A stretch of DNA of 64,000 nt from Octopus vulgaris (Eukaryota), in contig OX597819.1 in the NCBI GenBank assembly GCA_951406725.2, forward strand, positions 127,162,001 through 127,226,000. The letters run 5' to 3'. Positions 41,515 to 55,558 of this stretch are shown piece after piece. The notes below the pieces were generated by a model. The model made no database searches. It was not told the origin of the DNA and was given only the letters and a program-made list of their open reading frames with translations. Within the stretch, counting starts at the first letter, position 1; each line of letters begins with the position of its first letter. The translations under genes were made by a program, and so were the position numbers.

Positions 41515-41744
41515 AGGGCGGCGAGCTGGCAGAAACGTTAGCACGCCGGGCGAAATGCTTTGCGATATTTCGTCCGCCGCTGCGTTCTGAGTTCAAATTC
41601 CGCCGAGGTCGACTTTGTCTTTCATCCTTTCGGGGTCGATAAATTAAGTACCAGGCACTGGGTTCGATGTAATCGACTTAATCCGTTTGTCTGTCCTTGT
41701 TTGTCCCCTCTGTGTTTAGCCCCTTGTGGGTAGTAAAGAAATAG
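41515..41744 (+). mobile_element. SINE family A inserted in (GATA)n
   Basis: Full-length match. Confidence 0.9.
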
Positions 41745-44253: not shown

Positions 44254-44668
44254 TATTTCTTTACCACCCACAAGGGACTAAACACAGAGAGGACAAGCAA
44301 GGATAGACAGACGGATTAAGTCGATTATATCGACCCCAGTGAACTGGTACTTAATTTATCGGCCCCGAAAGGATGAAAGGCATAGTCGACCTCGACAGAA
44401 TTTGAACTCAGAACGTAACGGCAGACGAAATACCTATTTCTTTACTACCCACAAGGGGCTGAACACAGAGAGGACAAACAAGGACAGACAAACGGATTAA
44501 GTCGATTATATCGACCCCAGTGCGTAACTGGTACTTAATTTATCGACCCCGAAAGGACGAAAGGCAAAGTCGACTTCGGCGGAATTTGAACTCAGAACGT
44601 AGCGGCAGACGAAATACCGCTAAGCATTTCGCCCGGCGTGCTAACGTTTCTGCCAGCTCGCCGCCTTA
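44254..44668 (-). mobile_element. SINE family A, head plus two body units
   Basis: TSD CAAACACACATATAT. Confidence 0.9.
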
Positions 44669-47969: not shown

Positions 47970-47974
<5 letters not shown>

Positions 47975-49281
47975 AAACAAACTCAACTTAACACCTCGAC
48001 CTTCTACACAAACTAACGAGGAAACCGAATCGAATAAAACACCCTCCGAAATATTCGAGAAAGTTGAAAATCTATGCGATACAATGACGACATTCTTCAC
48101 AAACTTTACGAAACAAGAGCAACAAAAAGAAGGAACACATGAGAAGAACCGAGCAACTTCAACATTACAAATAAAGAACCAAGTCCTCCCCCAATGGAGA
48201 ACACTACAGCGAAACAGAAAATTCGCTTTTTGGAAAATGATACAAAATCAGAATAAAGCAGAGATTTACCAAAAATGGCTAGACTCAACACCCCTAGTCA
48301 TACCCCGTAAATTACAAATCAAACCCATCTCGGAAGAACCAGAAGAACAAAGAAAACTTTGAGAAAAAAATGTCATTAGAAAAAATGAAGCTGGAAATAG
48401 AACTACTTAAGCTGAGAGCTAAAACGAATGAAGAAAAAGTAAAAACCATAGACGAGGAAATCATCGAAGAAGTCATCAAACTAATAGACGACAACAATAC
48501 TGAAACATTAACAGCACTATGGAATGAAGAATGTGAAAAAGAGGAACTTAAGTCCCTCCAACGATGGGAAAAGAGCGTCATCTGGTTTCTAGATTATGAA
48601 ACCAACTTCAAAAATGAACACATATCCAACAACCCCTTCATAAAATTAAGCAAATCAAAACCAAATACCAATAGAACGGAACAACCACCAAGAAATCCTA
48701 CCACACTCTACACCAGAAAAGTACACCTAAAACACACCCCACACTACCTACACCAACCCCAAAACACCTACAGAGGCCCACCACACCAGTTCGAAAATAG
48801 ACATACCAACAGAGCAGAACAACCACCAAGAAATCCAAACACACTCTACACCAGAAAAATGCATTTAAAACGCACCCCACACTACCTACACCAACCCCAA
48901 AACACTTATAGGGTCCCACCACACCATTCCACGAACCTAAGAGCCACAACATACAATACTATAAAATACAACCCACATAACCAAACCAAAACGCTACTAC
49001 CAAACATCCACCCCAGGAACCAACCATACAACCATAACAAACAACAAATGCACTACGGAGGAAACAACTACCAACACAATACACCTGAGGAACTAAGACG
49101 TAACACTAGGTTCAACAACAGACTCCAGAACAGAGCACCACAAACTCACTCTGACAATTATAACAACATGAGACAGATAAATAATAGCTTTGAACATAAC
49201 TACACCAACCATTTTTTAGACCCCACACACAGGAACAGGGACACACGATGGCAAAGGACAAACAAAAGAAACCTCAGGTAA
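47970..49281 (+). pseudogene. ORF1 of the PLE: predicted helical/coiled-coil N-half and N/H/Q/P/R-rich low-complexity C-half; 5'-truncated
   Basis: ORFs 47883-48362 and 48370-49281 join into one (..EQRKL[R]EKMSLEK..) if TGA 48360-62 is a decayed CGA and one A is removed from the 7-A run. Same A/C-rich strand bias as the RT ORF, which it overlaps. Confidence 0.75.
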
Positions 49282-51546
49282 TTAAGATAATCAATCTCTC
49301 AAACAAAGAACTTACACCTAACGAAATAAGCATACTCTCCAAAGGACTTAAATTTACACCCACCCCACAACGTTCTAATTATTATGAAATGAAAGATGAT
49401 ATTTCGGAATTTTGCAGAAAACTAAGACTCACCGAGGCATTTCAAGACAAACAAATAGAGGAGGACTCAATAGCTAGAAACAAGAGCAATTACACCCCCA
49501 CCAAAGGTAAGAATAAAGCCTTAGACCGCTATTGTGACTACATAACTAATTTCCCGTTTCAATTCATCAAGAAACAAAAACACAGCCCTAACTTCAACAA
49601 AAGAGAATGGAACGACCTCATCAAACTAAGAGAAGACAAAACAATAACAATTAAGGAGGCAGATAAGGGCAACGCGATAGTAATAATGAATACAAACAAT
49701 TATAAAAATTTAGTGCTATCCCTATTAAGAGATGAAACGTATTATGAAAGGGCCCAACAGTATAACCAGCAAAAAATAATGCATAACCTTAGGACATTAA
49801 TCAACACATACCAAGAAGGACTCACGAACAAGGAGTATGAATACATCACTAACTTCAAATGCAAATCGAGTTTGTTCTATGGTATCCCTAAGGTACACAA
49901 AAGCCAAACCATTAGAGAAACGTGCAAAACATCCACCGACACACTCATCAAAATCCCTTCACCAAATGATCTTAAACTAAGACCGATAATAGCAGGGCCA
50001 GCATGTGAAACTCACCGCCTCAGCAATTTCTTAGACACACTTCTTAAACCTTTCCTAAAACACATCAAAAGCTACGTAAGAGACGATATAGATATGCTCA
50101 ACCACCTCCCTAAAACAGTCAATGAGAAAACCCTTCTAGTATCATTCGACGTAGTTAATCTTTATTCTAACATCCCTCACAACCTAGGAATAGAAGCAAT
50201 CACCTTCTGGCTGAATAACTACCCCTTTGAACTCCCAACTCGCATAAACAAAGACCTTATAATAGAAGGACTTAGATTCATTTTAGAGAACAATTATTTT
50301 ATTTTTGACAATGATTTCTACAGGCAAAGATCGGGAACAGCGATGGGCACGCGCACTGCACCATCTTTTGCCAACCCAGTGATGGGATACCTCGAGAAAA
50401 TACTATACCGGATGACACTCGAGAAATATGGAAACACCTTCGCCACCTATATCCATAACAACTGGAAAAGATACCTCGATGACTGTTTCATCATCTGGGA
50501 CAAAGGCATAGAGAAACTTGAGGAATTTAAAATTCTATTAAATGGAATAAATGACAATATACAATTCACGATGGACCACAACGAAAAAGAATTACCATTT
50601 TTAGACATCCTCATTAAGAAAACCGGCAACAAAATAGAGACAGATATCTACTATAAACCGACAGACTCTAAACAGTACCTACCCTTTGATTCATGCCACC
50701 CACGACACACTAGAATGAATGTCCCTTTTTGTTTAGCTAGAAGGATTTGCACCATAATATCAGACACAAACACCCGACACACACGTCTCCAGGAACTTAG
50801 AACCACACTCACAAATAGAAACTATCCACAGCCCCTAATAGACAGTGCAATCCAACGGGTACTTAAATTAAGTATAGAAGACCTGAGACAAACAAAACCA
50901 AAAAAGAAAGAACAATTAAAAACCCTTCCCTACATCTCTACACACAACCCACTCAACAATGAGGCCTTCAACACCATACTACAAAGCACAGCCCTACTAA
51001 AGGGAGACCCAAAGATGAACCGGATCCTCGAAACACACACCATCATTAAAAGTAAACGGCAACCAAAATCCTTGAAAAGGATTTTAACCCAAGCTACGCT
51101 GCACTCAACAGCAACCACAAAACCAGCAGTTAGAAAATGTGGAAGGCCCAACTGCGGAATCTGTGTCATCTTGAAAGAAGGATCAGAATTTATACTGGAA
51201 CAAGGCCACCAGTTCACCATTAGAACAAACTTCACCTGCGCATCAGAAAACTTAATTTACGTCATAACATGCGCAGGCTGCAATAGGCAGTATATAGGCC
51301 ATACAAAAAATAGCTTACGTAACAGGATGGCGGTGCATAAATCACAAATTAGAAACCCTGATTACCGCAAAATACCGGTCAGCGGACACATAGATAGATG
51401 TGCTGGAAATGTAAATCCGAAATTTACAACTAACCCGCTCTATAAATTCAGTGACAACGCAACCTTCACACAACGCCAAAATAAAGAACTATATTTCATA
51501 AAAAAAATTTAGACCAAGTTTAAACACCCTGGGCCAGGAATACTAA
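49248..51546 (+). CDS. Penelope-like element polyprotein (reverse transcriptase, Cys-rich linker, GIY-YIG endonuclease), Neptune-like
   Basis: 754-aa ORF with PLE motifs IINLS, LSKGLKFTPTP, IKEADKGNAIV, FYGIPKVHK, LRPIIAG, SFDVVNLYSNIP, QRSGTAMG, RYLDD and DIYYKPTD. Linker CGRPNCGIC; endonuclease LIYVITC..C..QYIGHT..LRNR..H. One extra A in the A-run near 51500 truncates the natural end FIKKFRPSLNTLGQEY* (stop ends 51546). Confidence 0.95.
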
Positions 51547-51699: not shown

Positions 51700-52165
51700 T
51701 CAGACCCGATTCTGATTGGTCAACAAGTTGATTACGTCTAGCTCTGCTAGAATGGACAGGATACAAACAGGGGACAGTCATTAGTCAGAATATTGATGAC
51801 GTCCTTTTCTGCTTGAATAGTCACCTAACAAGTACAGACAGGGGGCAGATCTAATGTAGCTATAAGTCGTGATTGGGCAGAATCTGGATGACGTCCCGCT
51901 ATGCTTGACTAACGAAGCGACTGGTCAAGACAGGAAACAAACAAGAGGGAGTTATAATGCAGCGATTGGTCAAAATAATGATGACGTCCCGTTCCACTTG
52001 ATTAAAGCCACCTAACGAAACGATTGGTCAAAACATTGTTGACGTCACGCTACGCTAGATTGACCACCTAACAGGCATTATAAAACCGAGCATTTCACAA
52101 AAACTCACTAGAACCACCCAGCGAACTTCCACCATGGGTCATCACAATTGCTTAAGGTAAAAATG
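51700..52165 (+). promoter_or_regulatory. PLE pseudo-LTR promoter: five CCAAT/CRE modules, TATA, Inr, mini-exon and splice donor
   Basis: ATTGG/ATTAG at 51715, 51780, 51872, 51965 and 52023, each followed 12 nt later by T(G/T)ACGTC. TATAAAA at 52079, TCACT at 52105, ccaccATGg at 52134, AG|GTAAAA at 52157. Confidence 0.7.
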
Positions 52166-52409
52166 AATTCCTCGCTCTTTCGGAAACATCAATCTTCTGT
52201 ATTGACCGCTTTCCACCACTTTGATCTGTTTTTTGTATTGAATACGTATCGCCACCGTGGGCCACTGCATCGAACACTTTGAACATATACTTCAAACTAT
52301 ATATCAACTATACATGAAATATATATCAACTATACATGAACTCTAAGATGTCTGACTCCGTTGTGTATTATAAATGAATTTCTTGTGTTTGACGGCATGA
52401 GCTGTCTCT

Positions 52410-52478
52410 TTTTATATATAACTTTTTTTGATAAGGTTCATTTCAGGAACTGAAACATGTTATAATGTATATATAAAA
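52410..52478 (+). ncRNA. Minimal type I hammerhead ribozyme (U3-A8 variant) in the PLE pseudo-LTR
   Basis: TTGATAA-GGTTC-atttcag-GAACT-GAAA-CATG-TT; palindromic ACATGT stem III; imperfect AT-rich stem I. Confidence 0.65.
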
Positions 52479-52524
52479 ATTAAAAATTGTATAATACAGC
52501 AGCATTTTCGAACTTCATTTTTTT

Positions 52525-52628
<104 letters not shown>

Positions 52629-52639
52629 GTTTAAATATT

Positions 52640-54022
52640 TGTTGTGCAAATGTCCATCAGGTAAAGAAAATGATCGCACATGCACTAGGAGCTAGTATAA
52701 GAGTTACCCTAAAAGGCCACACATTTGAATTTAATAATATAATATATGCCCAGGACGAGGGGGCAGCCATCGGTGTTAGTATCGCTGGTGATGTGGCCAA
52801 CCTCTTCATGGTATGGTGGGACAGAAGGCTTAAAGAATGCCTACTGCAGAAATCCATACTCGTAAACATGTACTCTCGCTATGTTGATGATATCAATATA
52901 GTAGTAAAGGCACCCCCACAAGAGAGTAATGTTGATATAGTAATAGAAACTAATACTATGGAGAGCATCCAGCAAATAGCTAACTCCATCCACCAGAGTA
53001 TTAAGGTCACAATAGACTACCCCACTAAACACCCCAACCATAGACTACCAGTACTAGACACTGAACTCTGGCTAGAAATTGTGAAAAATAAAACCCAAAT
53101 CCTTCATTCATACTATGCAAAACCTATGGCCTCAAAATACCTGATCCACCGGAACTCAGCCATTGCGGGCAATGCCAAATTCAATATTTTGATGGCAGAC
53201 CTCGTCAGAATAATGAGAAATGTGTCACGCATGTGCGAGCCTACAGAATTAAAGAGACACATACAGTATTTCATTCACCGCATGCAGTTCTCAGGTTACA
53301 GCCATAAAGAAAGGGTCAGAGTATACAAAGGAGCCATGAAGAAATTTGATAATATATTATGTAATGATAGGAATGGGATTTGCCCACTCTATAGGAACAA
53401 GTCATGGAACACTATAGAAAGGACAAAAAAAAAAAGAAAATAGGGAAGGCCAACTCTTGGTATGATAGCCATAAATACCAGAGTGCCATGTTCGTTGACA
53501 CCACCCCTGGAGGTGAACTGGCGTACCGCTTTAGAAGGACCCTAGATAAACTTAAACTAAGAATTAAGGTTGTTGAAAAGCCAGGCAACCCTATCAGATC
53601 TATAATTGGTAGAAGCTATCCCTTTAGTAGAACTCTCTGTACGGATAACTATTGCACTGTATGTAGATTTAGCCCACAAACAAACTGTAAAGCCAAAAAT
53701 GTGGTCTATAGTATAAGATGTATAGAGGGACGATGCAGTAACAAGACAGTAACATACGTAGGGGAAACAGCAAGAAGCATTGGTGAGCGGGTGAATGAAC
53801 ATTGGAGACAACTCAAGGAAGGTAAAAGCTCATCGATTCTGTACCAACACGCTCAACAAGAACACGGGGGGATCAATCAATAACATAGAGATTAAGATAT
53901 TGTCCACACATAGAACAGATGCAACATTTAGACAAATTACAGAAGCTACACATATAAAAGAAAATAAACCTAGCCTGAATAGAAAACTAGAATGGAGCAA
54001 TAGCGCACACCACAACATATGA
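52640..54022 (+). pseudogene. Second PLE (5'-truncated RT and GIY-YIG), distinct lineage
   Basis: YAQDEGAAIG..VANLFM, YSRYVDD, LPVLD, YAKPMAS, RMQFSGYS. After a frameshift in the A-run near 53430: CTDNYCTVC, NVVYSIRC..TYVGETARSIGERVNEH. After a second shift near 53868: [22 protein letters not shown]. Confidence 0.92.
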
Positions 54023-54240
54023 CGATAGTGGATCCAGCAAACATAATAAATACACAGATAATTAAAGAAATAGAAATGAATAACTATATATATGTATATG
54101 TGTATGTATATGTGTATATGTGTGTGTATGTGTGTATATATATGTGTATGTATATGTATATGTGTGTGTATGTGTATATATATGTATATGTATGTATGTA
54201 TATATATATATGTATATATATATGTATATGTATGTATATG

Positions 54241-54283
<43 letters not shown>

Positions 54284-54329
54284 TTTTCAATTAGATTTAT
54301 TATTATTATTACTAATATTGTTGTTATAC

Positions 54330-54760
54330 ATACATACAAGCATATGTAATGATAATAATAGGTGGATGTAAACACATGAACAAAATTAGAACAAAAGCAA
54401 CAACAACAAAAACAAAATACAAATTACAAGAATGTATATAACCAGAAGATACAAATATTACAAGCATCCCCCTCACACACACACTAAATAAACATAGACG
54501 CACATAGAGATATAAGCATGCGCAAATGAAGACATACAATAGAAATACAAAATGGCTGACGGTTAGTAAGGAGAGACACAAGTAAGTGAGAAGAAAACAA
54601 AGGACCACTGATGTGGTCACAGGAGTGTGACGAAAGAACTTTGGCCGAAATAAGATTAAGATTAATGTAAAAAATAAATATCACTGAAGCAAAATAACAC
54701 CAAATATATAGTGCGTGTGTTTTTATTGGCTAAACTGGCAATATGACCATTCCGAAATAT

Positions 54761-54819: not shown

Positions 54820-55164
54820 GGTCATTCAACAGAAGATTCTCCAAGGCAGTGCCCCAGCATGGCCGCAGTCTAATGACTGAAAGAAGTAAAAGAGATCGGG
54901 GTGATACATTTTCTCTCAGACAAGAAGCACAAGATTACACCTGTTAACGGTGTATATAAGTTAAGCTTGATATATAGATAACTATTTTAATCTAATGCTG
55001 TTTCATTTGCGTATACTAAGGATCGAATAGAAGAGGTTCGTACATTATTTGTTCAGTAGTGGAGGAAATATTTCCCTCGCAATTTTAGAGAAAATTGTAG
55101 TATTAGTAGCAGAAACAGAATGAAGGATTACTGTGTATATGGCCTAGTGGTTATAGCATGGTAG

Positions 55165-55558
55165 AACAGTTAGCACATCGGGCGAAATGCTTAGCCGTAT
55201 TTCGTCTGCCGTTACGTTCTGAGTTCATATTCCGCCGAGGTCGACTTTGCCTTTCATCCTTTCGGGGTCGATTAAATAAGAACCAGTTACGCACTGGGGT
55301 CGATATAATCGACTTAATCCGTTTGTTTGTCCTCTCTGTGTTTAGCCCCTTGTGGGTAGTAAAAAAATAGGTATTTCGTCTGTCGTTACGTTCTGAGTTC
55401 AAATTCCGCCGAGGTCAACTTTGCCTTTCATCCTTTCGGGGTCGATTAAATAAGTACCAGTTACGCACTGGGGGGTCGATGTAATCGGCTTAATCCGTTT
55501 GTCTGTCCTTGTTTGTCCTCTCTGTGATTAGCCCCTTGTGGGTAGTAAAGAAATAGGC
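55165..55558 (+). mobile_element. SINE family A, two body units
   Basis: TSD TATAGCATGGTAG. Confidence 0.9.

What the first reader, a model, noticed from the sequence alone, without database searches (positions are those of the whole stretch)
52107..52480. Mini-exon in the pseudo-LTR could splice in frame to RT and leave the hammerhead in the intron
Seen: ccaccATGg (52134) opens MGHHNCL and ends at AG|GTAAAA (phase 2), and the hammerhead lies about 270 nt downstream. The slippery site at 49212-19 (ttttttAG|A) is also a plausible 3' splice site: AG+A CCC CAC.. gives MGHHNCLR-PHTQEQGHTMAKDK.., in frame with RT. Established: PLEs are transcribed from an upstream tandem pseudo-LTR and can retain introns. 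Inference: in a tandem copy, splicing would skip both the ribozyme and ORF1 to give RT mRNA, while unspliced RNA is self-cleaved as the retrotransposition template. The second PLE also has a GTAAGT donor (54582) just 5' of its hammerhead. The frame match has a 1-in-3 chance expectation.
Basis: inference. Interest (0 to 1): 0.7.

Follow-up and report, generated by a model that had tools for sequence, protein, structure and literature searches.

The report
Live splice donor before Penelope ribozyme
A young jumping-gene family has a working splice signal just after its predicted promoter, seen once cutting the ribozyme-like motif out of an RNA; it likely serves a short leader intron before the first gene, while the copying enzyme is likely made by ribosome slippage rather than by the gene-skipping splice first proposed.

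Summary
All coordinates check out. The element is a young, two-ORF, Neptune-type Penelope-like family; tandem copies exist, but this window's copy is 5'-truncated and lacks the upstream pLTR. The donor at 52156|52157 is live. One transcript-type contig joins it exactly to a host acceptor 595 nt downstream of a solo pLTR, a GT-AG intron holding the whole hammerhead. It lies about 50 nt after a TATA/initiator, like Penelope's known 5' intron. The proposed ORF1-skipping splice to RT is poorly supported. The mini-exon ATG is confined to the youngest subfamily (3 of 14 pLTRs aligned; donor in 11). Sister families keep the same junction without ATG or donor. Across 13 relatives (29-100% identity) the in-phase T TTT TTN heptamer is always kept, but 4 lack the AG, so -1 frameshifting is the conserved role. 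Best model: a 5'-leader intron removes or breaks the hammerhead and most upstream ATGs; ORF1 is translated and RT made by frameshift. The element's own acceptor is not shown. Copies run through an uncut hammerhead, so self-cleavage is not needed for the template.

The parts
47971..49281 (+). ORF1, 5'-truncated and split by a 1-nt insertion in this copy (466 aa from MPAKKDTN in intact copies)
   Evidence: no Pfam family above cut-off, no PDB hit
49212..49219 (+).
   Evidence: intact in 32 of 38 family loci; heptamer kept in 13 relatives, AG in 9
49200..51512 (+). ORF2: RT + CxxxxCxxC linker + C-terminal GIY-YIG; family-specific ATG at 49248 aligns with the ORF1 stop codon of sister families
51770..52061 (+). 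Four 49-nt repeats with ATTGG (CCAAT) and TGACGTC motifs, predicted upstream promoter
   Evidence: D20; function inferred
52079..52109 (+). TATAAAA (52079-85) and TCACT initiator-like motif (52105-09); predicted start near 52107
   Evidence: TATA kept in 11 of 14 aligned pLTRs; same TATA+TCACT layout in PMC3846280; not mapped experimentally
52107..52156 (+). Predicted first exon (about 50 nt) with a young upstream ATG at 52134 (8-codon uORF if unspliced)
52157..52162 (+). 5' splice donor GTAAAA, shown used in a paralogous solo pLTR
   Evidence: 386 exact genomic copies of the donor context
52405..52480 (+). Minimal type-I hammerhead-like motif, U3-A8 variant (core 52428-52461, predicted cut 52461|52462)
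   Evidence: cleavage untested; Rfam negative
52434..52502 (+). Candidate acceptors of the leader intron: AG at 52434-35 and 52445-46 (inside hammerhead), 52498-99 and 52501-02 (after it)
   Evidence: top T-rich ranks; YAG before CATTTTC in two sister families; none shown used, and all four were skipped in the one observed splice
52630..54760 (+). Second, unrelated 5'-truncated PLE (single ORF of about 1310 aa in full copies) with GTAAGT at 54582 and hammerhead variant at 54609

Best explanation
The site at 52157 is a working splice donor in the terminal repeat of a young two-gene Penelope-like retrotransposon, and it likely starts a short leader intron that ends before ORF1, so that the mRNA would lose or break the hammerhead while reverse transcriptase is likely made by -1 ribosomal frameshifting at 49212-18. 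Shown: tandem architecture; donor use in one solo-pLTR locus with the hammerhead inside a 595-nt GT-AG intron; phase conservation of the slippery heptamer; unspliced form in all genomic copies found. Inferred: start of transcription near 52107; the element's own acceptor (52435, 52446, 52499 or 52502, or in the 157-nt linker); frameshifting itself; unspliced RNA as the template. The in-frame ATG is likely a recent uORF, not a coding first exon.
For: Donor use: run X11 has a loose end exactly behind L066:1020, the last base before GT. It maps to one genomic place with 1 mismatch (C15:30698083), directly after a T-tract and CAG, 595 nt downstream of a same-strand solo pLTR donor. Position: about 50 nt after the predicted start; Penelope's intron begins 46 nt after its start (PMC2377424). 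Purpose: the unspliced leader holds 9 upstream ATGs; splicing to 52499/52502 would leave 1, whose uORF ends 39 nt before ORF1. The donor outlives the ATG: 11 of 14 versus 3 of 14 aligned pLTRs. Frameshift: of 62 loci with an RT N-terminal hit, 21 have a long upstream ORF in -1 relation and 14 of these have T TTT TT[A/G] in slip phase (13 after dropping L110, same family as L099). Four of the 13 lack the AG, and 11 of 13 have no Met before the RT N-terminal motif. PMC8557442 Fig. 1 legend lists frameshift-separated ORF1 and conserved introns for PLEs.
Against: The element's own acceptor was not observed, and the one observed splice skipped all four in-pLTR AGs for a stronger host acceptor. It is one contig in 1 of 8 runs, from 'organism B', with RNA status only guessed; a second pLTR copy 22 kb upstream could equally be the donor source. 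The donor is absent in the 3 most diverged subfamily copies. Sister families L099 and L109 lack a strong donor, and L109, L114 and L119 have a TATA-like motif within about 40 nt of the hammerhead, so this intron is not clade-wide. No stimulatory hairpin follows the slip site (z +1.2), and the ORF1 stop is 20 codons away against 10 in sister families. Seven of the 21 -1-overlap loci lack the T6 heptamer (3 have other heptamers, 4 none).
Confidence: 0.58

Rival explanations
1. One reading: in tandem copies the donor splices to 49219, removing a 1775-nt intron with hammerhead and ORF1, to give an RT-only mRNA started at the mini-exon ATG, possibly as a minor isoform beside frameshifting.
For: Donor is live; the only AG of 99 that gives a full RT fusion, ranked 4th by T content; in-pLTR AGs were skipped in the one observed splice; AG follows the heptamer in 9 of 13 relatives; no frameshift-stimulating hairpin; Chlamys-3 has alternative acceptors within the body (PMC8557442).
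Against: ATG absent from 8 of the 11 aligned pLTRs that keep the donor and from the genome's allele of the solo pLTR nearest the observed splice. Four of 13 relatives lack the AG. The tract is only the six T's, with 1 T in the 14 nt upstream. Sister families share the identical junction with no donor or ATG to feed it. No genomic copy carries a spliced junction (0; the 2 hits are point mutants, against 386 intact), which is weak because PLEs retain introns.
Confidence: 0.12
2. The donor is incidental: a splice-competent motif that arose in one lineage's expanded pLTR and is used only when a copy sits upstream of a host exon; the element's mRNA is unspliced and ORF1 is reached by leaky scanning, reinitiation or another start site.
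For: Only a host-chimeric splice was seen; successful sister families have no such donor; contigs bridging the donor unspliced exist in X1, X3, X5, X9 and X11, though they may be DNA or host pre-mRNA; in-pLTR acceptors were skipped.
Against: Donor kept through subfamilies whose surrounding pLTR is heavily rearranged; spacing from the predicted start matches Penelope; 9 upstream ATGs in the unspliced leader.
Confidence: 0.25
3. RT is started at its own ATG (49248) by termination-reinitiation, independent of both splicing and frameshifting.
For: ATG in good context 31 nt before the ORF1 stop, kept in nearly all family copies; 52 of 120 database homologues are called with a start upstream of the N-terminal motif (gene-caller and ranking bias).
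Against: 11 of 13 relatives with DNA context have no such Met; the ATG aligns with the ORF1 stop codon of sister families, so it looks like a by-product of stop loss.
Confidence: 0.05

Closest known systems
Penelope of Drosophila virilis (PMC2377424 passages; PMC4209133 passages)
   Same: pLTR promoter, donor about 46-50 nt after the start, retained intron in genomic copies, intron interacting with the hammerhead
   Different: Penelope has one ORF, a TATA-less promoter and a 75-nt intron ending at helix I; here the leader is about 490 nt, TATA-type, the hammerhead lies downstream of the donor, and there are two ORFs
Chlamys-3_cRei (PMC8557442 passages)
   Same: 5'-UTR intron starting in the pLTR; alternative acceptors
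   Different: N-terminal endonuclease, no hammerhead in most Chlamys, introns proven by Iso-Seq; here the element's acceptor is unproven
Neptune clade of EN+ Penelope-like elements (PMC8557442 passages and supplementary Fig. S2 text)
   Same: RT, long CX2-5CxxC linker, C-terminal GIY-YIG, pLTR with hammerhead, (TA)n targets; the Fig. 1 legend allows a frameshift-separated ORF1
   Different: No tree was built; the figure is not viewable, so which clade carries the frameshift symbol was not seen; no pseudoknot or hairpin evident here
Minimal hammerheads of metazoan PLEs, U3-A8 variant (PMC4209133 passages)
   Same: UUGAUAA core, bulged base before stem II, palindromic helix III
   Different: Stem I has two U-U mismatches next to the core; activity untested

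Membership tests
EN+ Penelope-like element | RT plus C-terminal GIY-YIG endonuclease | tested here: met
   Pfam RVT_1 E 1.2e-6 (28.9 bits, just under cut-off 29.6) and GIY-YIG E 3e-6 above cut-off
EN+ Penelope-like element | Partial-tandem copies forming pLTRs, 5' truncation, optional tail | tested here: met
   (25 of 29 pLTR copies end at +81-83 from GAAAC, 3 at +123, 1 runs on in tandem)
EN+ Penelope-like element | Single ORF (canonical description) | tested here: not met
   Two ORFs in -1 overlap in intact copies L065 and L066 and in relatives; PMC8557442 Fig. 1 legend allows this variant
Neptune clade | CX2-5CxxC motif with long linker before a C-terminal GIY-YIG | tested here: met
   CGRPNCGIC plus long linker, compared by eye with Fig. 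S2 rows: Neptune-like, not the short Nematis linker
Neptune clade | Phylogenetic placement of RT | not tested
   No tree with reference sequences was built
Minimal hammerhead ribozyme | Core boxes and helices I-III | tested here: inconclusive
   Core and stem II kept across 14 pLTRs; Rfam 0 hits; minimum-energy fold is not the active fold, z -2.0
Minimal hammerhead ribozyme | Self-cleavage | not testable with these tools
   2-3 of 24 copies begin within 7 nt of the predicted cut, a weak hint only
Penelope-type 5' pLTR intron | Functional donor shortly after the start site | tested here: met
   (one contig, host acceptor)
Penelope-type 5' pLTR intron | Acceptor within the element upstream of the ORF | tested here: inconclusive
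   Candidates only; no joint seen in contigs, which cannot show absence
-1 programmed frameshift site | X XXY YYZ heptamer in phase in the ORF overlap | tested here: met
-1 programmed frameshift site | Downstream stimulatory structure | tested here: not met
   -3.6 kcal/mol, z +1.2 in this family; z below -2 in 1 of 13 relatives; pseudoknots and protein stimulation not tested

The most novel reading that the evidence does not exclude
In the youngest subfamily the eight bases UUUUUUAG do double duty as slippery site and 3' splice site. A newly gained ATG exon lets the element make a ribozyme-free, ORF1-free RT mRNA by splicing, on top of the ancestral frameshift fusion, so one switch would separate mRNA from template and set the ORF1:RT ratio.
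Probability: 0.12. Interest if true: 0.65.

Novelty: new variant of a known kind. Interest (0 to 1): 0.33.

Why it matters
Why Penelope-like elements keep both introns and hammerheads is an open question (PMC8557442). Here is a young family with intact copies, a donor shown to work and the hammerhead downstream of it, so one RT-PCR can test whether splicing makes a ribozyme-free mRNA. The 386 donor-bearing copies can also act as alternative first exons for host genes, as seen once. The general layout, a 5' pLTR intron and a frameshift-separated ORF1, is already described, which limits surprise.

Tried and rejected
No RNA holder listed on record (23 runs, all contigs, RNA status guessed). Eight of these runs (5 studies) were laid on tandem copy L066: no joint from the donor (1020) to 2796 or to any place in the element. 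Contigs drop rare variants, so this is not counted as evidence of absence; 13 and 59 loose-end rows were not shown. A second X11 loose end, before L066:986 just after an AG, suggested a 35-nt cassette exon; it maps to C5:97088134 with no pLTR in the next 70 kb, so this was rejected and the loose end stays unexplained. Spliced retrocopies in the genome: none. Rfam: 0 hits. The pattern search for tandem copies of the second element gave only tails; a protein search found them. The host exon could not be named. ORF1 has no Pfam or PDB match. Literature searches for an ORF1-skipping splice or an intronic hammerhead in PLEs listed no such report. PMC5850863 and PMC1890498 were not held, Arkhipova 2006 was not seen, and the supplements of the bioRxiv preprint were not seen; these may describe PLE frameshifts or introns in more detail.

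Full report
Observation. Every coordinate in the finding is correct: ATG at 52134, AG|GTAAAA at 52156|52157, hammerhead-like core from 52428, TTTTTTAG at 49212-19 and GTAAGT at 54582. The splice would be in frame with RT; it is the only one of 99 AGs in an intact copy that gives the full fusion, and 1 of 3 AGs in the open stretch before RT's ATG. Unspliced, the mini-ORF stops at the donor after 8 codons.

The element. The pLTR search gave 957 candidates; the 40 scored are 99-100% identical. The ORF1 5' end gave 112 candidates. I fetched 38 long loci. Twenty-four hold the ORF1 start, 14 of these have donor plus hammerhead upstream, and 8 have the full 466-aa ORF1; L065 and L066 have both ORFs intact. 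The window copy lacks about 157 nt including ORF1's ATG, has no upstream pLTR, and has 1-nt insertions in both ORFs, so the proposed splice cannot occur in it linearly. ORF2 has RT and GIY-YIG and a Neptune-like linker by eye comparison with PMC8557442 Fig. S2. The hammerhead matches the U3-A8 minimal variant (PMC4209133); Rfam misses it.

The donor. It lies 50 nt after a TATA/TCACT pair. In 14 representative pLTRs that I chose across subfamilies, the donor is present in 11 (one as AAA|GTAA), absent in the 3 most diverged, and the ATG is present in only 3. Laying contigs of 8 runs on L066 gave one loose end exactly behind the last exon base, in run X11. Its letters map to a single genomic site immediately after a T-tract and CAG, opening a 93-nt host-like exon that ends in GTAAGC. 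A solo pLTR lies just upstream on the same strand, giving a 595-nt GT-AG intron that contains the whole hammerhead; another pLTR copy 22 kb upstream is an alternative source. The donor therefore works. Limits: one contig, another species label, RNA status guessed. In that event the four in-pLTR AGs were skipped, the mini-exon frame stops four codons into the host exon, and the genome's nearest copy has ATA in place of ATG.

The acceptor. The junction is intact in 32 of 38 family loci. Two sister families in the same genome (65-68% RT identity) have the same CATTTTTTAGAC junction, no Met before the RT N-terminal motif and no strong donor. Of 127 loci tested, 62 had an RT N-terminal hit, 21 of these a long upstream ORF in -1 relation, and 14 of these T TTT TT[A/G] in slip phase; dropping L110 (same family as L099) leaves 13, some of them related. 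Nine are followed by AG and four are not (L114, L127, L151, L191); 11 lack an upstream Met. A splice acceptor cannot lose its AG, whereas a slippery site can, so frameshifting is the conserved function. Against this, no hairpin follows the site, and 7 of the 21 lack this heptamer. The family's own RT ATG aligns with the sister families' ORF1 stop.

Mechanism. Most likely the pLTR of a tandem copy initiates near 52107 and splices from 52157 to an acceptor in or after the hammerhead. The unspliced leader has 9 upstream ATGs; splicing to 52499 or 52502 would leave one short uORF, and YAG before CATTTTC recurs in both sister families, although that motif sits near the insertion end and could be kept for reverse transcription instead. 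ORF1 is then translated and a minority of ribosomes slip into RT. Genomic copies are unspliced: 386 intact donor contexts, 2 point mutants, 0 spliced junctions. Template cleavage is not required: 29 of 29 aligned pLTR copies extend 70 nt or more beyond the predicted cut, although 2-3 of 24 copies begin near it. PMC11167929 (parts 1-2 of 4 read) found uncleaved RNA the dominant substrate. The element's own acceptor, the start site, frameshifting and cleavage are inferred, not shown.

Second element. Full copies have one ORF of about 1310 aa starting MTIPK, 164 nt after the GTAAGT, with an in-frame stop just upstream and no strong acceptor between. It offers no parallel to ORF1 skipping; its donor was not tested against reads.

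Known versus new. A 5' pLTR intron is known for Penelope (46 nt after the start; PMC2377424 passages; its end meets hammerhead helix I, PMC4209133 passages) and Chlamys-3, and a frameshift-separated ORF1 is in the PMC8557442 Fig. 1 legend (passages; supplement searches and part 54). I also read passages of PMC3846280, PMC5408684, PMC6431247 and bioRxiv 10.64898/2026.07.22.740005. Eight searches listed no report of a hammerhead placed inside the leader intron or of an ORF1-skipping splice; two relevant papers were not held. Earlier AI notes on the same frameshift were seen after my own test and are not counted as support. Verdict: donor real, hammerhead removable by splicing, ORF1-skipping RT mRNA unlikely (about 0.12); a new variant of a known arrangement, interest 0.33.

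Noticed in passing
L275:2269-3177 (G000:C15:30697268-30698176): Solo pLTR acting as upstream exon for an unidentified host-like exon; a second pLTR copy of the family lies 22 kb upstream on the same strand.
   Followed up: partly
L271 (G000:C5:97088134-163): Run X11 has a contig joining this unique sequence to the pLTR at L066:986; no pLTR within 70 kb downstream in G000, possibly a polymorphic insertion.
   Followed up: partly
L031, L065, L066, L078, L087; L067, L075, L076; L079: 5' ends of tandem copies cluster at window-equivalent 52021-52038 (5 of 24), near the hammerhead cut 52454-52465 (3 of 24), and once at the donor (52159).
   Followed up: partly
window 49248-49281 versus L099, L109: This family lost the ORF1 stop 10 codons after the slip site; the change created RT's ATG and moved the stop to 20 codons.
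   Followed up: partly
L107 (G000:C2:212133200-212140200): A sister-family copy with seven T's has ORF1 and ORF2 fused in one 1008-codon frame.
   Followed up: no
L099 pLTR: Sister family has a T-rich stretch ending TTACAG directly before its hammerhead core, recalling the Penelope intron end at helix I, but no strong donor upstream.
   Followed up: partly
window 54609-54650: Second element's hammerhead has CUGAUGC (CUGAUGU in this copy) instead of CUGANGA, family-wide; its ORF has a long Asn-rich insert and a short, Nematis-like zinc linker.
   Followed up: no
L111-L233: Many relatives sit in metagenome contigs and bacterial MAGs, likely eukaryotic contamination.
   Followed up: no
window 41527-41744, 44342-44665, 55159-55556: Copies of an unrelated SINE-like repeat in both orientations.
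   Followed up: no
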